DNA from: Clostridiales bacterium
GTDB taxonomy: Bacteria; Bacillota; Clostridia; Oscillospirales; Acutalibacteraceae
DNA: 64,000 nt
Assembly: GCA_036831405.1 (NCBI GenBank)
Contig: DAISMS010000002.1
Coordinates: forward strand, 26,202 to 90,201
Direction: 5' to 3'
The translations under genes were made by a program, and so were the position numbers. Below the pieces are notes generated by a model, which saw only the letters and a program-made list of their open reading frames with translations, was not told the DNA's origin and ran no database searches. Each line of letters starts with the position of its first letter. Position 1 is the stretch's first letter. Shown here in pieces: positions 8,926 to 63,652 of the stretch.

Positions 8926-10230
8926 ATGGATGTAACGACACTAAAAAATAAGGTCTGTGCAGAGATAGACAGGAATAAAGATACCATTCTATCCTGGGGG
9001 AATACCCTTTTACACCATCCGGAGCTTGGATACAAGGAGCTCAAAACCAGTGCTTTTATCCGAAGTAAGCTTGATGAATTAAATATCCCCTATATCTATC
9101 CGGCTGCGGTGACAGGAATCAAGGGAAGGATAAGCGGAAATTCGGCTGACCTGAATATTTGTATCATCGGTGAAATGGATGGGGTCATCTGCACGGATCA
9201 CCCGAATGCCGACGGGCTGACAGGTGCGGCGCATGCCTGCGGACACAATGCGCAGGTTGCCGCAATGCTGGGAGCGGCCTGCGGTCTGTTGAAAAGCGGG
9301 GTAATGCCTGAGCTGTGGGGAAGCGTCACCTTTTTGGCGGCTCCGGCAGAGGAGTACATGGATATCGCCTACCGAAGGCAGCTCAAAGAAAACGGTACAA
9401 TCAAATATTTTGGCGGAAAGCAGCAGCTTCTTTATGAGGGCATGTTTGATGATGTTGATTTGGCAATAATGATTCATTCACATGCCGAAACACCCGAAAC
9501 AAAGCTTTTTCTGCAGGGTGGAAGTCTGGGGTTTGTTTACAAGACCATGGAATTTAAAGGCAGGGAATCCCACGGAAGCGAGCCGTATAAAGGGGTCAAC
9601 GCCCTTAACGCGGCAATGCTGGCACTGATGGGGATTCACGCCAACCGTGAGACCTTTCGAGATGAGGATAAGATTCGGATTCACCCGATTATCACCAACG
9701 GGGGCGAGATTGTAAACACCATCCCGGCAAACGTGACCATGGAAACCTATGTCAGAGCAGGCAATCTGGAAGCAATGAAAGATGCAGCACTAAAGGTGGA
9801 TCGGGCGGTAAACGGAGCGGCGATGTCTGTTGGGGCAAAAATAAAAATCAAAACGACGGCGGGCTACCTGCCATTAATGCAAGATAACAACCTGAGTGCA
9901 GTGTTTGAAGGGAATGCCGCCGCATTTGTTCCACAGCGGGATATATACCATGGTGTTGATATGACAGGCTCCACCGATATGGGTGATTTAAGTCATCTGA
10001 TTCCTTGTATCCAGCCCACCATGGGTGGCTTCTCGGGCACTGCTCACAGCAGGGATTTTGGTATTGCCAACCCCGATGCTGCATATATCCTTTCGGCAAA
10101 AATATTGGCAATGACGGTTATTGACCTCCTATATGACAAGGCAAAATCAGGGACCGAAATTAAAAATACGTTCAAGCCGGTTATGACCAAAGAGGAGTAT
10201 ATACGTTATTTAGATCAACAGGAGAGATGA
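8926..10230 (+). CDS. M20-family amidohydrolase (AbgB / hippurate-hydrolase-like)
   Basis: HACGHNAQVAAMLGAA metal-binding segment, and a two-lobe M20D-like length of 434 aa. Confidence 0.8.
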   Translation: MDVTTLKNKVCAEIDRNKDTILSWGNTLLHHPELGYKELKTSAFIRSKLDELNIPYIYPAAVTGIKGRISGNSADLNICIIGEMDGVICTDHPNADGLTGAAHACGHNAQVAAMLGAACGLLKSGVMPELWGSVTFLAAPAEEYMDIAYRRQLKENGTIKYFGGKQQLLYEGMFDDVDLAIMIHSHAETPETKLFLQGGSLGFVYKTMEFKGRESHGSEPYKGVNALNAAMLALMGIHANRETFRDEDKIRIHPIITNGGEIVNTIPANVTMETYVRAGNLEAMKDAALKVDRAVNGAAMSVGAKIKIKTTAGYLPLMQDNNLSAVFEGNAAAFVPQRDIYHGVDMTGSTDMGDLSHLIPCIQPTMGGFSGTAHSRDFGIANPDAAYILSAKILAMTVIDLLYDKAKSGTEIKNTFKPVMTKEEYIRYLDQQER

Positions 10231-31168: not shown

Positions 31169-31246
31169 CTAATCATCCAGAATCAGAAATATAATGATAA
31201 TGAAAAGTAAAATTGAACAATCAAATTCACCACAGCCTTTTCCCAT
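31169..31246 (-). CDS. tiny hydrophobic Cys-containing peptide, paralog A (25 aa)
   Basis: GAAGGAGGgcagttatATG; MGKGCGEFDCSILLFIIIIFLILDD. Below the 60-aa track cutoff. Paralogs at 31462 and 36015. Confidence 0.5.
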   Translation of the reverse strand: MGKGCGEFDCSILLFIIIIFLILDD

Positions 31247-31461
31247 ATAACTGCCCTCCTTCTACTGTTCTCTTTTCCATTATATGTACAAGAATAAATA
31301 TTGTCCATCGTATATATGAAATCTGCCCATAGTTGCGGCATACGCAAACTATGGACAGGTTTTTCTGCCACATATTTGGCTGTATCAAGTCTTGGTTTAT
31401 TAATAACCCTTCTTTTTATATGCTTGATACAATAAAACTATACTTGTCGTGCAATACACAG

Positions 31462-31560
31462 TTAGCAGTGATCGTCATTACAGAAGCACAATAAGAAAAT
31501 GACGATCAGAATAATCCACAGACAGCAATCATTGTCTCCGAACAGTCCGCCTCTACCCAT
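31462..31560 (-). CDS. tiny hydrophobic Cys-rich peptide, paralog B (32 aa)
   Basis: AAGGAGGTaaggcaaATG; MGRGGLFGDNDCCLWIILIVIFLLCFCNDDHC. Confidence 0.55.
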   Translation of the reverse strand: MGRGGLFGDNDCCLWIILIVIFLLCFCNDDHC

Positions 31561-31734
31561 TTGCCTTACCTCCTTATTTTGCTCTGTTCCATACTATGCT
31601 GTGGATACATAAGTGTTAATTAAAATAGGGTGTATTGCAAATCGATTTTGCAATACACCCCTTGACCCATTTTGCAACAGCCGGTTAAGACGAAAATTCT
31701 GATTTCAGCATATAAAATGAGACACTGCGCGAAT

Positions 31735-32169
31735 TCATGGATGAAACCCTGTGTATGGAAATAGTCCCTCTTCCATAGAAATGTCTGCGATGCGCCAAAA
31801 GCAATCCTCCCTCACAATATTCAGGACTGCATTATAATCCCCTGCGGGGCCTGTTGAAGTTGCGGTAGAAAACCTTAACTCAATGGTACTGGAATCGGTA
31901 TCGGGAAACTTTATATCCACAGTCCGATAACCCGACACCCATGGGCTCGATATCCCTGTAACCCAGTTGGGAGCATTTGTTTCCAGCTGACGGGCATATT
32001 CTACTTTAAGCGCCTCTGTCATGACAGCATACTGCAGGGCTGCGCTTCTGTTTACTAAACCGCTTGCCCATACTTCAGCGGCGTCCTTGGGACAGCAGAC
32101 ACCCACCTGATTCATGGCTTCTTTTAGCAGCCGGTTCTGTATTTCACAGTTTGTTTGGTTGAACTCCAC
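31735..32169 (-). CDS. hypothetical protein (144 aa)
   Basis: A clean ORF with no motif I recognise. A 13-bp perfect hairpin (GGTGTATTGCAAA/TTTGCAATACACC) follows it at about 31630-31660. Confidence 0.55.
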   Translation of the reverse strand: MEFNQTNCEIQNRLLKEAMNQVGVCCPKDAAEVWASGLVNRSAALQYAVMTEALKVEYARQLETNAPNWVTGISSPWVSGYRTVDIKFPDTDSSTIELRFSTATSTGPAGDYNAVLNIVREDCFWRIADISMEEGLFPYTGFHP

Positions 32170-32358
32170 ATATATTCCCTCCCATATTCATGTCAGCAAT
32201 ATATGTATATTCATGGGTTTGTTATTCATAACATTGTTGCTATGAATAATATATGGCTTAATGACCTCCTCCCGTCATCCCTCGGCAATAAAAAAGATAT
32301 AACAAAAAAGATACTGATACCTAAATTCACAATAGAAATCGCAACTTTTCCATTCTTT

Positions 32359-35748: not shown

Positions 35749-36014
35749 ATGGAAGGCAACGATTATTCTACACTGAAACCGGCTCTTTTGCAACCCCTAA
35801 TTTAGACCGAATCAATTTTTTCGAAAATCATAACCATGTATCTGAACACTTGGTTGCGATTAAATTTTAAGGTGTTAAATCATTTCTCGCCGATGGTATC
35901 ATAGATGAATCCTTCCCTCTGTCGCTTGACAGAGGGAAGGATTCACTTCATAAGGCGAAATAGATAATCGAAAGAAAGCGATCCTTTGATTAAGGAGGAG
36001 GAAAATCTGTTCCG

Positions 36015-36098
36015 CTAGTCTTGAAGAAGCAGAATGATAATGATGATAAAAAGCAGCAAAGAGCAATCCATGTCATCAAATAAATTTCTCAGACTCAT
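36015..36098 (-). CDS. tiny hydrophobic peptide, paralog C (27 aa)
   Basis: AAGGGGGTaagcgcATG; MSLRNLFDDMDCSLLLFIIIIILLLQD. Shares the F-D-x-DC-[SC]-L core plus an Ile/Leu helix plus an acidic end with A and B. Confidence 0.5.
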   Translation of the reverse strand: MSLRNLFDDMDCSLLLFIIIIILLLQD

Positions 36099-36261
36099 GC
36101 GCTTACCCCCTTTCATGGGCTCATCATATATTATGAAATTGAATATAATGTGGTTACAGAATCCGCACCCACATAACATTGAATAAAAAACAACATGATT
36201 GCATAGGATATCGGCAGAAAGTACTTGTTTGACTAAATATTCAACCCCTATTTTTAAATGT

Positions 36262-36313: not shown

Positions 36314-36517
36314 ATGAAAAAATCAGGTTTTGGATTTGGCGGTCATTCGAAAGGCAGGAGGTATCTGCCGGATAACGATTGGGAAGTAGCTGAAGAGATA
36401 TCCCCCGACCCGTTTTCAGAAGAGGAACATTCACAAATCCATGCGCGAAGGTTTGTACAGCCAAAATATAACAACAAGAAAATCAAAGAAAAAACGAACA
36501 ATCCGGAGCATACGTGA
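36314..36517 (+). CDS. small hypothetical protein (67 aa)
   Basis: ATG 36314 with GGAG 7 nt upstream; MKKSGFGFGGHSKGRRYLPDNDWEV... No recognised motif. Sits immediately upstream of the ctsR promoter. Confidence 0.5.
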   Translation: MKKSGFGFGGHSKGRRYLPDNDWEVAEEISPDPFSEEEHSQIHARRFVQPKYNNKKIKEKTNNPEHT

Positions 36518-53423: not shown

Positions 53424-54320
53424 CTATCTGGTTTTGACCGACTCAGGGCTCAATTTCCTGGGGGCTTCCAGCATTTCACGTCCAACAGATACAGTACCGT
53501 CTTTTTTAATGAAATACGCCCATTTGGCAAGCATAATTTCGCCGCCTGCAATCTCAATACAGGTGATGCAGCGGGGATGCACACAGCTTCCGTCATTATA
53601 ATAGGCGGGTTCTTCTGCCGAAGGAAACACCGGTCGATGTGTATGCCCCGCAATCAACATGCAGTCTCCTTTTTTTACCCAATCTATCAGCTTACGTTCA
53701 ACCGAGATCCGCCTCTTATAGTTTTTGGCCGCACTGGTCGGGTCACGTACGCCGATTGCTTCGAGTGGTTTCCAGACGTATCTGACAAGAAAACGCGATA
53801 TCATCCAAAGATTGTAATTAAGAAAATCGGCCTGATGCCCGTGAATCAGCAGTATTTCTTGATTGCTGTTCTCGTGCTTTAGAACCAATGATTCAGGAAA
53901 TTGAATACCTGGACAACAAGCACACATGCAATTCTTACGGGAATCAAAAATTGTATCCAGGCATTTCGTTTTTTTTGGATTTCTTTTTTCCATATCATGA
54001 TTTCCGAAAAGCATATGAAGACGGTTTTTTGAATAAAATCGGGAAAATAAACGATATATATTGCGGTAGGTATCCACAATATCCTGCAGCCTTTTGTTTT
54101 CCCAAAGTTCATCCCCGTCTCCAAGCTCAATATACGTGAAACCGCTATCATAATAATGGTTTAGTGCGTGGTAATAAAGTCCCTGGTTTTTTGCAAAATT
54201 ATCCGCCCAGCTTCCTTCTCCTCTGTGACAGTCGCTGAATATGACGATTTTAGAGCGGTTGTTAAAAGGAATACGGGCGGCAGTTTCATACAGCTTATTC
54301 AGACGATTGTTGATTGTCAT
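53424..54320 (-). CDS. calcineurin-like metallophosphoesterase (paralog)
   Basis: IFSDCHRGEG, ELGDGDELW, GNHD, IHGHQADF and GHTHRP. Its start overlaps the upstream gene by 26 nt. Confidence 0.75.
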   Translation of the reverse strand: MTINNRLNKLYETAARIPFNNRSKIVIFSDCHRGEGSWADNFAKNQGLYYHALNHYYDSGFTYIELGDGDELWENKRLQDIVDTYRNIYRLFSRFYSKNRLHMLFGNHDMEKRNPKKTKCLDTIFDSRKNCMCACCPGIQFPESLVLKHENSNQEILLIHGHQADFLNYNLWMISRFLVRYVWKPLEAIGVRDPTSAAKNYKRRISVERKLIDWVKKGDCMLIAGHTHRPVFPSAEEPAYYNDGSCVHPRCITCIEIAGGEIMLAKWAYFIKKDGTVSVGREMLEAPRKLSPESVKTR

Positions 54321-55269
54321 TGGCAGCTTCCCTCTCTCTCTTCAGTTTGTTAAGAGATTGGAACAACTCCCTCTGCTTACCGAAATGAATTGCCATATTG
54401 TACAATTCTTCATTCTCTTGGCGCAGGGCGTTGAGTTTATCGGTGATCGAATTGAAAGGAGCGGTTATTCTCTGGTAGATTTCGCAGAATTCTCTATTTC
54501 TGCTCTGTGTCAGACTGTCTGTGATTTTGGTTCTGGTAAGTGGCTGTGAAGTGTGTGGCGTTCCGTAATAAATCGCAACCATATCTCGTTTTACACGGTA
54601 TTCCTGCGGGCTGTATCCGGCCTCACGCAGTCCTTTCAAAAAGGCGTCACGCATTTCTAAATCCTTAAAAGTCAGACGAATGATCATAGAAAGTTCTTCA
54701 GGTTGCGAGAACTCTCCGAGTACAAATCCGGTCAGCCACCAATGCTTTTCGTGGCGGGTAAAAAGGGGGTGGCTGTTTTTGTATAAGGTCTGATATATAT
54801 CTAATCGCTCATCATCAGAAACACATTTATAAAGTCTTCCGTTCCAGTCGATCAGTTCGGTATCATCGCTGTCTGTGCAATAGATACCTACCTCTCCGCC
54901 TGTGGTCATACCGTATTGGCCCTTCCAGAATTGTATCAGCCAATGCCTGCCGTCATAATCAAAGTAGATGGGTTCGGCATCTATAATCATACTTAAGGTT
55001 GCCATAGCTTCATCGTAAAATCTACAGTAGCCGAAGTCTCTCTGCCATGGATTCATGAGGGAATAAAATATATCTTGGCTCTCATCATATGCGAAACCGG
55101 TAAACTCGATTGCTTCATTCAGTTCCGGAATGGTCGAAAAAAGCGGCACGGGTTTTCCTGCAATGGAGGCAGTTTTTTTATGCTTGCGGTTTATAATAAT
55201 AGACAGAACGATTATAACAAGTGCGGATGCTCCGATAAACACGCCTGTCCAGACCGGGTCCATGGTCAA
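54295..55269 (-). CDS. N-terminally anchored membrane protein (DUF4474-like by recollection)
   Basis: One N-terminal TM helix. The FAYDESQDIFYS...WQRDFGYCRFYDEA...FDYDGRHWLIQFWKGQYGMTTGGEVGIY block resembles what I recall of DUF4474. Confidence 0.5.
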   Translation of the reverse strand: MTMDPVWTGVFIGASALVIIVLSIIINRKHKKTASIAGKPVPLFSTIPELNEAIEFTGFAYDESQDIFYSLMNPWQRDFGYCRFYDEAMATLSMIIDAEPIYFDYDGRHWLIQFWKGQYGMTTGGEVGIYCTDSDDTELIDWNGRLYKCVSDDERLDIYQTLYKNSHPLFTRHEKHWWLTGFVLGEFSQPEELSMIIRLTFKDLEMRDAFLKGLREAGYSPQEYRVKRDMVAIYYGTPHTSQPLTRTKITDSLTQSRNREFCEIYQRITAPFNSITDKLNALRQENEELYNMAIHFGKQRELFQSLNKLKREREAANDNQQSSE

Positions 55270-55385
55270 CAGATATTCCTCCTTTCTTTTTACTTCATTC
55301 TATGCGTAAGGAGGAGTATCTGTTATAATGGAAACAGGATAAAATTTTAGATATAGCAGAATATAAAACTCTGAGGAGGAAAGAA

Positions 55386-56249: not shown

Positions 56250-57812
56250 TTAGGTTGACCGCCTTACCGGTCTCACCCATTTAATATCCCTTTTGTTCAG
56301 ACACCCGAACAAAAACAGAAGAAGGGTGTACACAAGGATTACTACCACCGATGCAAGGCAGATGGCTACCATGTCCAGCAATCCGGCGTTGCATAATATC
56401 CTATAAAGCATGAAAGCCCCAACACAGGAGGTTGTGATGGCCAGAAGGGGCTTTAGGATCCACTGCGCCCATTGCATGTTTACCTGGGTTACAGTCAAAA
56501 GACGATGGATGTTTAGGGATGCCGTCAGGATATTGCTTAAAATCATAATAAACAGAAAGCCTTTGATTCCCTGTATTGGCACGATTAACACGATTGCAGC
56601 AATGCGGATCACCGAATCAAGCACACTGTATTTGAGAGAGCTGACCTGCTGATCAAGCCCCTTAAGAAGCCCGTCAACCACGCTCTCAAGGTACATGAAC
56701 GGCATAATCGGGGCAAGTACGCCAATGAGAAAACCCACCTCGTTGCTTTGGTAGATCAGCATTCCAAGCTGCCCCGAAAACATTGTAAACAGACCGCTAA
56801 TCGGAATGGACATAAGCAGGGTGATCCTGAGGGACTGAATTACCGCCTGGTTTACCTTACCTTTTTTATGAAGCACCGCAGCTTCGGATATTTCGGGAAT
56901 CAATAGGGTTGAAAAGGCTGACAGAACGGTGGACGGGAAAAACAAGATGGGCATTGCCATTCCTTTAAGCATACCAAACTCGGACAGCGCGCGACCACGC
57001 GATCCGGAGAATTTTGTAAGACAGTTGGGAACCAGCAGATTCTCGACGGTACGCAGTGCGGTGTTGAGATAGCGCCCGGCAGTAATGGGCACGGCGATAC
57101 AAAGCAGCTTGCGCAGAATACGCGGCCTTTTTGAAGCGCTGCCAGATGTAAAGGTGGGCAGACGCCTTCTGTCACGAAGATAACCGATCGCCAGATGCAG
57201 GCAGGCTCCTGTTTCAGCAAGGGTATCAGCAATCATTACCGCAGCGCAGGCAGCACCGATTCCCATGGAAGAGAAACGGTCAATGATCAGGATGATTACG
57301 GCAATCCGGATGAATTGCTCCAGCAGCTGTGCGTTGGTAGAGCGTGATATCTTTCGCCTCGCGATGAAATATCCTCTCAAGCAGGAGGAAATTCCCATAA
57401 ACGGCAGACCGAGGGATAGGATTTGCAGGGCAGGGACGGCACGCAGATCGCCCAAACCGTAGCGGGCAATTGGTTCTGCCCCCAGTATGATGATTAGAGT
57501 TGATGCCATTCCGATTGCCAGACTGACGGAGATGGCGCGCCGAAGAATACGGCGGACGCTCTTGCGGGTACACTGACCCGCCTGCTCGGCTACCAGCCGC
57601 GTAACTGCCGTTGAAATGCCTGAGGTTGCAAAGGTTGATGCTAATATATATATAGAAAATACGAGCTGATAAAGGCCCATACCTTCGGCGCCGATTTTAT
57701 TGGATAAATAAACGCGGAAAAAGATTCCGACTGTACGCAGTAGAAGAGATGTTGCTGTTAATATAAAGGCGTTTTTAAGAAAGGTAAACTTTTTCAATGC
57801 TGCACTTCCCAC
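56250..57812 (-). CDS. spoVB: stage V sporulation protein B (MOP-family flippase)
   Basis: FLKNAFILTATSLLLRTVGIFFRVYLSNKIGAEGMGLYQLVFSIY...TAVTRLVAE parallels the B. subtilis SpoVB N-terminus. About 14 TM segments. Confidence 0.8.
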   Translation of the reverse strand: MGSAALKKFTFLKNAFILTATSLLLRTVGIFFRVYLSNKIGAEGMGLYQLVFSIYILASTFATSGISTAVTRLVAEQAGQCTRKSVRRILRRAISVSLAIGMASTLIIILGAEPIARYGLGDLRAVPALQILSLGLPFMGISSCLRGYFIARRKISRSTNAQLLEQFIRIAVIILIIDRFSSMGIGAACAAVMIADTLAETGACLHLAIGYLRDRRRLPTFTSGSASKRPRILRKLLCIAVPITAGRYLNTALRTVENLLVPNCLTKFSGSRGRALSEFGMLKGMAMPILFFPSTVLSAFSTLLIPEISEAAVLHKKGKVNQAVIQSLRITLLMSIPISGLFTMFSGQLGMLIYQSNEVGFLIGVLAPIMPFMYLESVVDGLLKGLDQQVSSLKYSVLDSVIRIAAIVLIVPIQGIKGFLFIMILSNILTASLNIHRLLTVTQVNMQWAQWILKPLLAITTSCVGAFMLYRILCNAGLLDMVAICLASVVVILVYTLLLFLFGCLNKRDIKWVRPVRRST

Positions 57813-61235: not shown

Positions 61236-61261
61236 AGTGAATAATATCATAAAAACATTGA

Positions 61262-61510
61262 CGGGAAGAGTAGACTCGACAGGACGTTTCAGAGAGCCGG
61301 GGAAGGTGCAAGCCCGGTACCGATAGTCGGGAGGAAGAACATCCCTGAGTTTCCATCCGAAAGCCTTTTCAGGTCAGTAGGCGTGGACGTCGGGCGGCAC
61401 GTTACAGCCGTAAACCATAGGTGATGAGTGGATCGTTAAACGGTCTATTTGGGTGGTACCGCGGAAGCATCGTCTTTCGTCCCAGTTTCAGGGATGAAGG
61501 GCGTTTTTTA
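61262..61510 (+). ncRNA. T-box riboswitch leader, specifier read as AAC (Asn)
   Basis: Stem I: GGGA-AGAGUAG, AG bulge CAGAGAG, distal loop GGUGCAA. The 3' side of the specifier loop reads GGAAG-AAC-A directly before the closing UCCC and the UGA K-turn. T-box sequence TTTGGGTGGTACCGCG at 61448-61463. Terminator at 61471-61509 with G-U pairs plus TTTTTT. Confidence 0.85.
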
Positions 61511-61570: not shown

Positions 61571-63652
61571 ATGAAACGAACCGACTATTGCGGCGCATTG
61601 CGTGAAAAGGATGTAGGCCGCACCATTACGGCGATGGGCTGGGCACAGAATAAGCGTGATATGGGGGGCGTTATTTTTATTGACCTGCGGGATAGAGAGG
61701 GTACGCTGCAGGTGGTTTTTGATGCGCGCAATCTTTCAGCAGAGGATTTTACGGCGGCCGAGCTTCTTAAGGTGGAATCAACCATTGCCGTCACCGGACT
61801 GCTGCGCCCTCGTGACCAGGAAACCTATAATCCGAGACTGGCGACAGGCACAATCGAGCTTGCCGCTACAAAGCTGGAGGTACTCTCCGAGGCCGAAACC
61901 CTGCCGTTTCAGCTGGAGGATGCAGCCAATGTTCGGGAGGATCTGCGACTAAAATACCGCTTTATTGATCTCCGCCGCCCCAAGCTGCTGAATAATCTGC
62001 GGTTCAGAGCCGCTGTTGTCAAGACGGTCTGTGATTATCTCGACAACGATGGATTTATTCAGATAGAGACGCCCATGCTGACCAAAAGCCCGCCCGAGGG
62101 TGCGAGGGACTACCTTGTTCCCAGCCGGGTGCATCAGGGCAAGTTTTACGCCCTGCCCCAGTCACCACAGATATTTAAGCAGCTTTTGATGGTGGGGGGA
62201 ATCGATAAATATTATCAGGTTGCCCGCTGCTTTCGCGACGAGGATCTGCGCGCCGATCGCCAGCCTGAATTCACCCAGGTGGATATGGAGATGTCGTTTG
62301 TTGGTCAGGAGGAGATTCTTATCCGGCTTGAAAAGCTGTTCAAGCATATTTTCAGCCGGACGCTGGGATTTGAATTCACCCAAGCCTTTCCCCGACTGAC
62401 ATGGCGTGAGTGTATGGACAGATACGGCAGCGATAAGCCGGATCTTCGATTTGATCTTCCCATCATCGACCTGACCGAGCAGATGCGGGGCTGCGGATTC
62501 TCAGTGTTCCGCAATGCAGTAGACAAAGGCGGTTATGTCCGCGCCATCAATGTCAAGGGCAGCGGTGATTTTACCCGCGGCACCATTGAGGATCTCACCG
62601 CCAAGGCACAGGGCTACGGCGCAAAGGGCATGGCATGGATTGCCATGAAGGAGGACGGAACACCCTATTCCATCCTGACCAAGTATTTTACTGAAAATGA
62701 ATTCGACAGCCTGCTTGGGGCAGTGGACGCAAAAGCGGGGGATTTCATTCTGTTCTGCGCCGACAAATATTCCACCGTCTGCCGCACCCTCGGCGGACTG
62801 CGGCTTGACCTTGCCGATATGATTGGGCTCCGCCGCAAGGATGATTATAAATTCCTGATTGTCACCGATTTCCCGGAATTTGAATATTCCGAGGAGGAGG
62901 GGCGCTATCTCGCAACACACCATCCGTTTACCATGCCCTACCCCGAGGACATCCCCTATCTCCTATCCGATCCGGGACGGGTGCGCGCCCAGGCCTATGA
63001 CGTGGTTCTCAACGGTGTCGAGCTGGGCAGCGGTAGCATCCGTATCCATCGCCGGGATGTACAGCAAACCATGTTTGAGGCACTGGGATTTGACGACGAG
63101 CAAATTGAAGAGCGGTTTGGATTTATGGTAAACGCTTTCCGTTACGGAACGCCTCCCCATGGGGGATTTGCATTCGGTCTTGACCGTCTTGTCATGCTGA
63201 TGTTGGGAGAGGATTCGCTTCGTGAGGTTATCGCATTCCCCAAGGTCAAGGACGCCAGCTGCCTGATGACCGATGCACCCAATGTCGTGGATCAGGAACA
63301 GCTGGATGTGCTGGGATTGACAGCCGGTCTGCTTGAGCAAGAACCGGCGGCTGCCACTCAAAACAAGCAGGTGGAAAAAATAAATGTGGACAACGTCGCC
63401 GAGCTCACCAAGCTCCAAATGAGCCAGAAGGAAAAAAAGGAGCTTGAAGCCGAATTGGAGACAATGATTGACTTTGTAAGTCAGCTTAAGGAGCTGGATA
63501 CCACCGGCGTGCCGGTTACCGATCATGCAGTACCGCTGAAAAATGTGCTTCGTGAGGATGTCCCCCATCAGCTTTATGACAGAGATGAGCTGCTTGCAAG
63601 CGCACCCCAAAAACAGGACGGATATATATTCGTACCGCAGGTCGTGGAATAG
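61571..63652 (+). CDS. aspS: aspartyl-tRNA synthetase fused in frame to a C-terminal GatC domain
   Basis: Class IIb AspRS motifs are present (FYALPQSPQ, FRDEDLRADRQPEF, GSIRIH, GGFAFGLDR). The normal AspRS end (AFPKVKDASCLMTDAP) is followed by a linker and a roughly 90-aa GatC-like module (nt 63380-63649). Confidence 0.9.
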   Translation: MKRTDYCGALREKDVGRTITAMGWAQNKRDMGGVIFIDLRDREGTLQVVFDARNLSAEDFTAAELLKVESTIAVTGLLRPRDQETYNPRLATGTIELAATKLEVLSEAETLPFQLEDAANVREDLRLKYRFIDLRRPKLLNNLRFRAAVVKTVCDYLDNDGFIQIETPMLTKSPPEGARDYLVPSRVHQGKFYALPQSPQIFKQLLMVGGIDKYYQVARCFRDEDLRADRQPEFTQVDMEMSFVGQEEILIRLEKLFKHIFSRTLGFEFTQAFPRLTWRECMDRYGSDKPDLRFDLPIIDLTEQMRGCGFSVFRNAVDKGGYVRAINVKGSGDFTRGTIEDLTAKAQGYGAKGMAWIAMKEDGTPYSILTKYFTENEFDSLLGAVDAKAGDFILFCADKYSTVCRTLGGLRLDLADMIGLRRKDDYKFLIVTDFPEFEYSEEEGRYLATHHPFTMPYPEDIPYLLSDPGRVRAQAYDVVLNGVELGSGSIRIHRRDVQQTMFEALGFDDEQIEERFGFMVNAFRYGTPPHGGFAFGLDRLVMLMLGEDSLREVIAFPKVKDASCLMTDAPNVVDQEQLDVLGLTAGLLEQEPAAATQNKQVEKINVDNVAELTKLQMSQKEKKELEAELETMIDFVSQLKELDTTGVPVTDHAVPLKNVLREDVPHQLYDRDELLASAPQKQDGYIFVPQVVE

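What the first reader, a model, noticed from the sequence alone, without database searches (positions are those of the whole stretch)
31169..31560. Unannotated family of tiny Cys-containing hydrophobic peptides (three paralogs in the window)
Three minus-strand mini-ORFs, all below the track cutoff, each have a strong SD at 6-8 nt spacing:
- A, 31169-31246: MGKGCGEFDCSILLFIIIIFLILDD
- B, 31462-31560: MGRGGLFGDNDCCLWIILIVIFLLCFCNDDHC
- C, 36015-36098: MSLRNLFDDMDCSLLLFIIIIILLLQD

They share a short polar head, an F/G-D-x-D-C-[SC] core, one Ile/Leu-rich helix and an acidic tail.

Each has a CATAnnnT box 29-33 nt upstream of its ATG (CATATAAT, CATAGTAT, CATAATAT), with an AC dinucleotide 16-17 nt further upstream. 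This is the shape of mother-cell sigma-K/E promoters.

Two readings are possible:
- sporulation-specific tiny-TM proteins, reminiscent of the Bacillus YjcZ tiny-TM family
- type-I-toxin-like membrane peptides

A and B lie next to a hypothetical gene and a C39-like peptidase lipoprotein, which could hint at processing, but that link is speculative.
Basis: partly seen in the sequence, partly recalled or inferred. Interest (0 to 1): 0.6.

Follow-up and report, generated by a model that had tools for sequence, protein, structure and literature searches.

The report
Three tiny sporulation-type membrane peptide genes
Three overlooked 25- to 32-codon genes are real members of a large, uncatalogued family of tiny greasy peptides in gut and digester Clostridia, and their conserved promoter points to production late in spore formation.

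Summary
All three minus-strand mini-ORFs exist exactly as described, each with a ribosome-binding site and an AC-N16/17-CATAnnnT box.

**They are real genes, not chance ORFs.**
- A profile built only from 192 public relatives picks out exactly these three among 2,418 six-frame segments of the window.
- C is the positional orthologue of a tiny gene lying divergently upstream of ctsR/clpC in at least 27 Acutalibacteraceae/Oscillospiraceae species.
- C is under strong purifying selection (pS 0.88, pN 0.12 against the nearest orthologue).

**The family** has about 290 near-non-redundant public members and no Pfam or NCBIfam model. A typical member has an M-C-N-x-F-G-G-N-C-[STC]-W head, a helix of about 12 Ile/Leu residues and a Cys/Gly/Asn-rich tail. 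The window's copies are short-tailed, acidic-ended variants.

**Promoter.** 22 of 30 family genes carry a strict AC-N15-17-CATAnnnT promoter, about 1000 times the background rate. The -35 element is the sigma-K type (AC), not the sigma-E type (ATA).

**RNA.** Metatranscriptome contigs cover B. They also cover the Acutalibacter orthologue, at depths of 2.9-46.5 across runs and above its neighbours in two runs.

**Rejected readings.** There is no antisense promoter, almost no basic residues, and no link to the C39-like peptidase.

**Closest known** is the Bacillus YjcZ family, which is analogous but not detectably homologous.

Expression in sporulation and peptide location remain inferred.

The parts
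31169..31246 (-). Gene A, 25 codons (MGKGCGEFDCSILLFIIIIFLILDD). A tail-less, acidic-ended member of the family.
   Evidence: - The ORF is.
- The external-only HMM scores it E=3.8e-5, third of 2,418 window segments.
- Against paralogue C it shows pS 0.73 and pN 0.20, binomial p=0.007.
- No orthologue was found outside the species.
31254..31262 (-). Ribosome-binding site of A (GAAGGAGGG), 7-8 nt from the ATG.
   Evidence: Read directly.
31279..31304 (-). Promoter of A: AC-N16-CATATAAT. It also fits a sigma-A promoter (TGGACA-17-TATAAT, 11 of 12), so its sigma factor is ambiguous.
31323..31358 (-). 12-bp hairpin between B and A, with no T-run. It is a possible 3' end structure of the B transcript.
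   Evidence: Read directly. The RNA contig over B stops at 31367, just before the hairpin. The role is inferred.
31367..31551 (.). Stretch covered by a 185-nt metatranscriptome contig with 0 differences. It spans most of gene B and its 3' flank.
   Evidence: In run X1 it is one of only two pieces in 20 kb that lie on the window over their whole length. Strand is unknown, and DNA carry-over is not excluded.
31462..31560 (-). Gene B, 32 codons (MGRGGLFGDNDCCLWIILIVIFLLCFCNDDHC). It is the most canonical family member in the window.
   Evidence: The ORF is. The external-only HMM scores it E=1.4e-8, the best segment in the window.
31568..31575 (-). Ribosome-binding site of B (AAGGAGGT), 7-8 nt from the ATG.
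   Evidence: Read directly.
31591..31616 (-). Promoter of B: (TTA)AC-N16-CATAGTAT, sigma-K type.
   Evidence: It has the same layout as the relatives' promoters.
31627..31661 (-). Intrinsic terminator of the upstream 144-aa gene (15-bp stem followed by ATTTTAATT). It makes B a separate transcription unit.
36015..36098 (-). Gene C, 27 codons (MSLRNLFDDMDCSLLLFIIIIILLLQD). It is the positional orthologue of the conserved tiny gene divergent from ctsR.
   Evidence: - The ORF is.
- The external-only HMM scores it E=2.1e-5.
- Orthologues lie in L011, L012 and others.
- Against L011 it shows pS 0.88 and pN 0.12, p=1.3e-5.
36105..36113 (-). Ribosome-binding site of C (AAAGGGGGT).
   Evidence: Read directly.
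36128..36154 (-). Promoter of C: (GTA)AC-N17-CATAATAT, sigma-K type. Both elements are conserved in the L011 orthologue while the surrounding DNA diverges.
35907..35944 (-). 17-bp hairpin 71 nt downstream of C, with no T-run. It is a possible terminator.
   Evidence: Read directly. The role is inferred.

Best explanation
A, B and C are three separately transcribed genes. Each has its own promoter, strong ribosome-binding site, 25-32-codon frame and hairpin. They are paralogues in a large, uncurated family of tiny peptides of Oscillospirales Clostridia.

**Shown**
- The frames are conserved coding sequences under purifying selection.
- Typical family members have three parts: a short polar head (M-C-N-x-F-G-G-N-C-[S/T/C]-W), one helix of about 12-16 very hydrophobic residues, and a Cys/Gly/Asn-rich tail.
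- The window's copies keep the head and helix. The tail is replaced by a short acidic end.
- The family gene normally lies divergently upstream of the ctsR/clpC operon, which is the position C occupies.
- A and B are extra copies specific to this lineage.

**Inferred from the conserved promoter**
- The -35 element is (G)TAAC, the spacer is 15-17 nt and the -10 element is CATAnnAT.
- On this basis the genes are transcribed by sigma-K RNA polymerase in the mother cell late in sporulation, as short monocistronic mRNAs.

**Inferred from composition**
- The peptides insert their short helix into the outer forespore or mother-cell membrane, or into a hydrophobic layer of the spore coat.
- The thiol-rich ends of typical members could cross-link or bind metal.
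- The tail-less copies here suggest that the head plus helix is the functional core.

This is the same kind of role proposed for the Bacillus YjcZ peptides.
For: **Gene reality**
- The external-only HMM singles out exactly these three frames.
- About 30 members occur in about 25 species, all with AAGGAGG-type sites and ATG starts.
- 292 proteins score E<=0.01 in the nr90 collection, and 161 cluster representatives score E<=0.001. None carries a Pfam domain, and the few that are named are 'hypothetical protein'.
- C against L011 gives pS 0.88 and pN 0.12 (p=1.3e-5). A against C gives pS 0.73 and pN 0.20 (p=0.007).

**Synteny**
- The gene lies on the strand opposite ctsR, 130-860 nt upstream, in 27 of 77 loci that hold enough upstream DNA.
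- In another species it is divergent from clpC where ctsR is absent.

**Promoter**
- 22 of 30 members have a strict AC-N15-17-CATAnnnT, against 0.02 per 100 nt of background. Most boxes end 28-32 nt before the ATG.
- A -35 of AC marks sigma-K and ATA marks sigma-E (PMC3789822).
- Bacillus subtilis yjcZ is in the sigma-K regulon (PMC517825).
- A SpoVB-like gene in the window (E=7.5e-89) suggests a sporulating organism.

**Transcription**
- A 185-nt RNA contig covers B.
- Discrete RNA contigs of 152-194 nt with 0 differences cover the Acutalibacter caecimuris orthologue in six runs. Their depths range from 2.9 to 46.5. In runs X9 and X10 they are 46.5 and 27.5, against 15 or less for the other long pieces listed in that 20 kb. 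None extends beyond the predicted start site.

**Structure**
- AlphaFold2 predicts one helix at residues 10-22 and disorder elsewhere.
- Most relatives carry an intrinsic terminator just after the stop codon.
Against: - No experiment links any member to sporulation. The sigma-K assignment rests on motif similarity alone.
- RNA contigs carry no strand information, and mouse-gut RNA does not show that the cells were sporulating.
- A's promoter is also a near-perfect sigma-A promoter (11 of 12).
- A and B have no orthologue in 80 loci holding related hcp genes. Their support is therefore paralogy, signals and one RNA contig.
- The hydrophobic run of about 12 residues in A and C is short for a membrane-spanning helix, so membrane insertion is not certain.
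- 50 of 77 related loci lack the gene at the ctsR position.
Confidence: 0.6

Rival explanations
1. The genes encode real small hydrophobic peptides that are expressed in growing or stressed cells and are unrelated to sporulation. The CATA-type box would then be a variant vegetative promoter. The peptides would act as small membrane, thiol-redox or metal-binding modulators, perhaps tied to the neighbouring ctsR/clpC stress operon.
For: - A's promoter fits sigma-A at 11 of 12 positions, and B's at 9 of 12.
- The gene is placed divergently from the ctsR/clpC stress operon across many species.
- RNA is readily found in ordinary gut metatranscriptomes.
- Typical members have a median of 9 Cys.
Against: - The most conserved promoter bases are the C of CATA and the AC of the -35 element. 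Sigma-A does not require these, whereas they define sigma-K promoters.
- The sigma-A -35 G (TTGACA) is absent from the family consensus GTAACA.
- Spore formation does occur in the gut, so RNA found there does not argue for vegetative expression.
Confidence: 0.17
2. The genes encode type-I-toxin-like or holin-like peptides that damage membranes. They would be either selfish toxin-antitoxin modules or a device for lysing the mother cell.
For: - Each peptide is tiny, with a single hydrophobic helix, a strong ribosome-binding site and an independent transcription unit.
- Multiple paralogues and tandem copies occur (L037 and L070).
- Late mother-cell timing would suit a lysis function (inference).
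Against: - None of 30 loci has an antisense sigma-A-like promoter of 10 or more matches out of 12, against 0.7 expected.
- Rfam found no antitoxin RNA in the window.
- Lys and Arg together make up only 1.7% of residues, unlike the charged ends of known type I toxins.
- No Pfam or NCBIfam toxin model matches.
- The position is a stable chromosomal one next to ctsR/clpC, not in a prophage or island.
- Known Bacillus type I modules use sigma-A promoters (PMC10730256).
Confidence: 0.1
3. The peptides are precursors of a secreted or modified peptide (a bacteriocin or RiPP) that is processed by the neighbouring C39-like peptidase lipoprotein.
For: - A and B lie 1-2 kb from a Peptidase_C39_2 lipoprotein gene on the same strand.
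- The family head contains a Gly-Gly pair.
Against: - No homologue of the peptidase or of the 144-aa gene lies within 10 kb of the family gene in 80 related loci.
- There is no maturase or transporter gene, and the head of 8-13 residues is too short to be a double-glycine leader.
- A strong terminator separates B from the upstream genes.
Confidence: 0.03
4. One or more of the three frames, most plausibly A, is a decaying or non-translated copy and not a functional gene.
For: - A and B have no orthologues outside the species.
- A has lost the N-terminal Cys, the Trp and the tail, and no RNA contig covers it.
Against: - The frame, ATG, ribosome-binding site and promoter are all intact.
- A against C shows an excess of synonymous change, p=0.007.
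- The tail-less form is shared with C and with the conserved L011 orthologue.
Confidence: 0.07

Closest known systems
YjcZ family sporulation proteins of Bacilli (Pfam PF09680, NCBIfam TIGR01732 'tiny_TM_bacill')
   Same: - Both are about 27-70 aa, with a short Gly-rich head, one very hydrophobic helix and a Gly/Cys/Tyr-rich tail of variable length.
- Bacillus subtilis yjcZ belongs to the sigma-K regulon (PMC517825). The family here carries a sigma-K-type promoter.
- Both often occur as several paralogues per genome.
   Different: - No HMM match was found at E<=10.
- The invariant YjcZ core G-F-A-L-I-V-V-L-F-I-L-L-I-I-V-G is absent. It is replaced by C-[STC]-W-I-I-I-L-x-L-L-C-C.
- hhalign gives a probability of 8% over 20 columns.
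- This family is far richer in Cys (median 9) and Asn, and usually starts M-C.
- It is found in Oscillospirales, not Bacilli.
Type I toxin peptides of Firmicutes (Fst, TxpA, BsrG and similar)
   Same: Both are tiny single-helix hydrophobic peptides encoded by free-standing units that usually go unannotated.
   Different: This family shows no antisense RNA signal, almost no basic residues, a sigma-K-type promoter in place of a sigma-A one, and a conserved housekeeping neighbourhood.
SpoVM and CmpA, small mother-cell morphogenetic proteins of Bacillus subtilis
   Same: Both are peptides of 26-37 aa made in the mother cell that act at the forespore surface (PMC10730256). This is the kind of role proposed here.
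   Different: - SpoVM is an amphipathic helix under sigma-E control.
- There is no sequence similarity, and the peptides here are uniformly hydrophobic and Cys-containing.
- This comparison is by function only and was not tested.
Other uncurated Cys/Gly/Asn-rich micro-peptide families of gut Clostridia noted earlier in this scan
   Same: The earlier notes describe the same architecture, a sigma-K-type promoter and a missing annotation. They are unchecked AI notes.
   Different: - Those cases lie at other loci (near mutL, groEL or uvrA) and keep long Cys-rich tails.
- Here the copies are tail-less and acidic, and one holds the conserved position divergent from ctsR.
- Sequence relatedness to those cases was not tested.

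Membership tests
YjcZ family (PF09680 / TIGR01732) | Match to the family HMM at or above the curated cut-off | tested here: not met
   No match at E<=10 for A, B, C or eight longer relatives, in either Pfam or NCBIfam. True YjcZ proteins all carry PF09680.
YjcZ family (PF09680 / TIGR01732) | Invariant core F-A-L-x-x-x-L-F-I-L-x-x-I-x-G | tested here: not met
   The YjcZ alignment A2 has F, A, L, L, F, I, L, I and G invariant. Alignment A1 of this family has none of these in register.
YjcZ family (PF09680 / TIGR01732) | Profile-profile homology | tested here: not met
   hhalign of A1 against A2 gives probability 8.2% and score 16.8 over 20 columns.
YjcZ family (PF09680 / TIGR01732) | Tiny size with a single hydrophobic helix and a Gly-rich head | tested here: met
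   Members are 25-61 aa, with one helix predicted at residues 10-22 and a head rich in N, G and C.
YjcZ family (PF09680 / TIGR01732) | Sigma-K-dependent expression | not testable with these tools
   Only the promoter motif could be tested. AC-N15-17-CATAnnnT is present in 22 of 30 members. Dependence on sigK needs a mutant.
Uncurated 'MCN-FGGN-C[STC]W' micro-peptide family of Oscillospirales (alignment A1) | Significant match to a profile built without the window's sequences | tested here: met
   B scores E=1.4e-8, C 2.1e-5 and A 3.8e-5. The next window segment scores 0.43.
Uncurated 'MCN-FGGN-C[STC]W' micro-peptide family of Oscillospirales (alignment A1) | Head motif F-G-x-x-[DN]-C-[STC] followed by a run of about 12 Ile/Leu residues | tested here: met
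   The motif is present in A (CGEFDCS), B (FGDNDCC) and C (FDDMDCS).
Uncurated 'MCN-FGGN-C[STC]W' micro-peptide family of Oscillospirales (alignment A1) | N-terminal M-C, Trp as the first helix residue, and a Cys/Gly/Asn-rich tail | tested here: not met
   Across the family, 76% start M-C, 89% have the Trp, and the median Cys count is 9. In the window, none starts M-C, only B has the Trp (after an inserted Leu), and the tails are 2-7 residues and acidic. The window's copies are therefore atypical, reduced members.
Uncurated 'MCN-FGGN-C[STC]W' micro-peptide family of Oscillospirales (alignment A1) | Position divergent from ctsR/clpC | tested here: met
   This is met for C, whose ATG lies about 545-575 nt upstream of ctsR, as in 27 of 77 related loci. 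It is not met for A and B, which lie upstream of the ferredoxin-hcp genes.
Uncurated 'MCN-FGGN-C[STC]W' micro-peptide family of Oscillospirales (alignment A1) | Sigma-K-type promoter ending about 30 nt before the ATG | tested here: met
   All three copies have it. A's promoter also fits sigma-A.
Type I toxin-antitoxin toxin | Overlapping antisense RNA gene with its own promoter | tested here: not met
   None of 30 loci has an antisense sigma-A-like promoter of 10 or more matches out of 12. In the window only a 9-of-12 match occurs, at chance level. No Rfam antitoxin was found. This was a consensus scan only; stranded RNA-seq would be decisive.
Type I toxin-antitoxin toxin | Charged (Lys/Arg) residues flanking the helix | tested here: not met
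   Lys plus Arg make up 1.7% of family residues. A, B and C have acidic ends.
Type I toxin-antitoxin toxin | Toxicity on overexpression | not testable with these tools
   This needs expression in a laboratory host.

The most novel reading that the evidence does not exclude
Spore-forming Oscillospirales may carry a previously undescribed class of sigma-K-driven micro-peptides that form a minimal structural element of the spore envelope. A helix of about 12 residues, too short to span a normal bilayer, would pack into the outer forespore membrane or into a hydrophobic coat sublayer. The thiol-rich ends of typical members would harden the layer or scavenge oxygen once the anaerobe's spore meets air. 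The tail-less, acidic copies in this genome would then be natural minimal versions, showing that the DC[S/C]-plus-helix core suffices. The fixed position back-to-back with ctsR/clpC might couple their synthesis to late mother-cell proteostasis.
Probability: 0.2. Interest if true: 0.75.

Novelty: new variant of a known kind. Interest (0 to 1): 0.5.

Why it matters
Spores are how many strictly anaerobic gut and digester Clostridia survive oxygen and spread between hosts. Yet the envelope components of their spores are almost unknown outside Bacillus and Clostridioides difficile.

This family is widespread, with about 290 near-non-redundant public sequences. Its RNA is readily detected in mouse-gut samples. 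It is invisible to annotation because it has no Pfam or NCBIfam model and is often shorter than gene-caller limits.

Recognising it would:
- add a set of candidate late-sporulation genes for Oscillospirales;
- give a sequence-defined sigma-K promoter for this order;
- offer naturally truncated variants, found in this window, that show which part of the peptide is indispensable.

If the sporulation link is wrong, the genes would still be conserved, transcribed micro-proteins of unknown role.

Tried and rejected
I therefore could not count paralogues in the whole genome or check for sigK and other sporulation genes.
A 43-aa stop-to-stop extension of B found nothing. Only an alignment of relatives taken from syntenic loci worked.

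**Searches that gave no useful variation or no orthologues**
- Same-species contigs L001-L010 are 99.75-100% identical over A and B, so they give no usable variation. The apparent 199-nt insertion in L002 is a run of N, an assembly gap.
- A metagenome scan with the 144-aa neighbour found no relative.
- A scan with Hcp returned 80 loci at 70-82% identity. None has a family member, so A and B have no detectable orthologues at that position.
- No RNA run was found for C.

**Readings rejected**
- The C39-peptidase link.
- The type I toxin reading.
- YjcZ homology.

**Other**
- An automatic re-anchoring of the promoter boxes mis-registered several sequences. I used the alignment.
- The first HMM included A, B and C and was therefore circular for them. 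I repeated the search with external sequences only.
Full report
**Observation**

The three minus-strand ORFs are present at the stated coordinates with exactly the stated translations.
- Each has a strong ribosome-binding site 7-8 nt from an ATG: GAAGGAGGG for A, AAGGAGGT for B and AAAGGGGGT for C.
- Each has a CATAnnnT box that ends 32, 30 or 29 nt before the ATG.
- Each has an AC dinucleotide 16-17 nt upstream of that box.

The genes are unannotated.
- The exact peptides are absent from a collection of 15 billion proteins.
- No gene is called at these places in ten same-species contigs from fermentation and digester metagenomes, although the three frames are there unchanged.
- No Pfam or NCBIfam model matches them.

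**Organism and setting**

The window holds the ctsR-mcsA-mcsB-clpC operon, hcp, ferredoxins and a SpoVB-like gene (TIGR02900, E=7.5e-89, below the curated cut-off). CtsR relatives place the organism among uncultured Acutalibacteraceae/Oscillospiraceae; the best match has 80% identity.

**A conserved family**

I fetched 80 loci around ctsR from species-representative genomes and searched their six-frame translations. About 30 tiny ORFs in about 25 species resemble A, B and C.
- All have AAGGAGG-type ribosome-binding sites and ATG starts.
- Nearly all lie on the strand opposite ctsR, 130-860 nt upstream of it.
- 27 of the 77 loci with at least 400 nt of upstream DNA have one there.
- C occupies this same position, so it is the positional orthologue.
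- In another species the gene sits back-to-back with clpC although ctsR and mcsAB are absent.

A profile of these sequences found 292 proteins (E<=0.01) in the collection clustered at 90% identity, and 161 representatives at 50% identity (E<=0.001). None has a Pfam domain. The few that are named are 'hypothetical protein'.

Features of 194 cleaned members:

| Feature | Value |
|---|---|
| Length | 31-61 aa |
| Start with M-C | 76% |
| Trp as first helix residue | 89% |
| Head composition | N/G/C-rich |
| Tail composition | G/C/N-rich |
| Median Cys per peptide | 9 |
| Lys + Arg | 1.7% of residues |

AlphaFold2 on the family alignment gives a single helix at residues 10-22 and disorder elsewhere, at low confidence (pLDDT 59).

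**The three window copies are members**

My first HMM included A, B and C, so it was circular for them. I rebuilt it from 192 public members only. Among 2,418 six-frame segments of the window:
- B scores E=1.4e-8.
- C scores 2.1e-5.
- A scores 3.8e-5.
- The next segment scores 0.43.

There are therefore exactly three paralogues in the window. They are reduced variants: none starts M-C, only B keeps the Trp, and the tails are 2-7 residues and acidic. The nearest orthologue of C (L011, MCLKNLFEDLDCSWLLFIIILILLLED) is also tail-less. The closest public subfamily (MCLRNLFGGNDCTW...) has tails ranging from long to nearly absent. The Cys-rich tail therefore seems dispensable in this clade.

**Coding evidence**

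| Comparison | Synonymous differences / sites | Non-synonymous differences / sites | pS | pN | Binomial p |
|---|---|---|---|---|---|
| C vs L011 orthologue | 14.5 / 16.5 | 7.5 / 64.5 | 0.88 | 0.12 | 1.3e-5 |
| C vs L012 | 10.0 / 16.5 | 11.0 / 61.5 | 0.61 | 0.18 | 0.006 |
| A vs C (paralogues) | 9.0 / 12.3 | 9.0 / 44.7 | 0.73 | 0.20 | 0.007 |

In the window-to-L011 alignment, the promoter boxes, the ribosome-binding site and the ORF are conserved while the flanks diverge.

A and B have no orthologue in 80 metagenome loci holding related hcp genes (70-82% identity), and the 144-aa neighbour has no relative at all. They appear to be extra copies specific to this lineage.

**Promoter**

Anchoring the upstream regions on the -10 box shows a conserved (G)TAAC(A/C) element, then about 14-16 nt, then CATAnnAT. 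In most members the box ends 28-32 nt before the ATG.
- A strict AC-N15-17-CATAnnnT occurs within 100 nt upstream of 22 of 30 members.
- The background rate in the same loci is 0.02 per 100 nt.

[quoted passage not shown] The family therefore fits sigma-K.

The conserved C of CATA and the missing G of TTGACA argue against sigma-A for the family as a whole. A's own promoter is nevertheless also an 11-of-12 sigma-A match.

Bacillus subtilis yjcZ is assigned to the sigma-K regulon (PMC517825).

**Transcription units**

- A 15-bp terminator at 31661-31627 closes the upstream 144-aa gene just before B's promoter.
- Hairpins follow B and C.
- Most relatives have a canonical intrinsic terminator 20-60 nt after the stop codon.

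**RNA evidence**

In one digester metatranscriptome, a 185-nt contig with 0 differences covers 31367-31551, which is most of B and its 3' flank. In that run it is one of only two pieces in 20 kb that lie on the window over their whole length.

For the Acutalibacter caecimuris orthologue (L074), six RNA runs from at least three studies each hold a discrete contig of 152-194 nt with 0 differences, spanning 9565-9768.
- That is the ORF plus its flanks. No contig extends past the predicted start site.
- Contig depths range from 2.9 to 46.5 across the six runs.
- In runs X9 and X10 the depths are 46.5 and 27.5, against 15 or less for the other long pieces listed in that 20 kb.

These contigs carry no strand information, depth is only a rough measure, and DNA carry-over cannot be excluded. 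No RNA run was found for C.

**Rivals**

- *Type I toxin.*
  - None of 30 loci has an antisense sigma-A-like promoter.
  - Rfam finds nothing but a T-box and two tRNAs in the window.
  - The peptides lack basic residues.
  - The genomic position is a stable housekeeping one.
  - Known Bacillus type I modules use sigma-A promoters (PMC10730256).
- *C39 processing.* No homologue of the peptidase or of the 144-aa gene lies near any relative's copy.
- *Vegetative small protein.* This is the main surviving rival, because sigma-K dependence is inferred from sequence only.

**Comparison with known families**

True YjcZ proteins were retrieved and all carry PF09680. They have an invariant FAL..(V)LFIL..I.G core that this family lacks. 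hhalign gives a probability of 8%. The two families share size, architecture and a sigma-K context but are not demonstrably homologous. This family works like YjcZ but is not a member.

Earlier notes of this scan describe similar uncurated Cys-rich, sigma-K-type micro-peptide genes at other loci in other gut Clostridia. They agree with this reading but are unchecked and are not independent evidence. I reached my reading before consulting them.

**Verdict**

- The best-supported mechanism is sigma-K-driven synthesis, late in the mother cell, of tiny one-helix peptides that join the forespore membrane or the coat (confidence about 0.6). The timing is inferred from the promoter and the location from composition.
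- This is a distinct, uncurated family analogous to YjcZ, hence a new variant of a known kind and of moderate interest.

Noticed in passing
window 31735-32225 (- strand): The 144-aa hypothetical gene just upstream of B has no Pfam or NCBIfam match, and no relative in one metagenome scan. It is preceded by AC-N15-CATATATT and a GGGAGGG ribosome-binding site, so it may be another late mother-cell gene. With B and A it would form a row of three such units.
   Followed up: partly
window 36314-36517 (+ strand): A 67-aa ORF (85 aa from an upstream GTG) lies between gene C and ctsR, in the same orientation as ctsR. It was called as a gene in same-species contigs and is conserved at 53% over 47 residues in L011. 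It has no family match.
   Followed up: partly
window 54298-55323 (- strand): A 324-aa DUF4474 protein gene is preceded by AC-N17-CATAGAAT and a ribosome-binding site 27 nt downstream of the box. It is another candidate sigma-K-type unit.
   Followed up: no
window 56253-57812 (- strand): A SpoVB-like gene (TIGR02900, E=7.5e-89, below the curated cut-off) hints that the organism sporulates.
   Followed up: partly
L037 1468 and 1901; L070 961 and 1163: Two species carry tandem duplicate family genes upstream of ctsR. In L070 the second copy has no promoter box of its own and may be co-transcribed with the first.
   Followed up: no
L091-L093, 7422-10510: In another uncultured species the family gene is back-to-back with a clpC-like gene, with no ctsR or mcsAB. 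An 82-aa AbrB/MazE-fold (PF04014) gene converges on it. The association with the clpC upstream region therefore outlasts the loss of ctsR.
   Followed up: partly
L019, L027, L033, L082, about 60-100 nt upstream of the family gene's -35 element: Tandem AGTCAnnnAAAGTCAA repeats lie in the shared intergenic region, close to the tiny gene's promoter. From memory of the CtsR consensus, they look like CtsR operators of the divergent ctsR promoter. Whether CtsR also affects the tiny gene is unknown.
   Followed up: no
window 61249-61487 (+ strand): A T-box leader (109 bits) lies upstream of a 693-aa ORF at 61571-63652.
   Followed up: no
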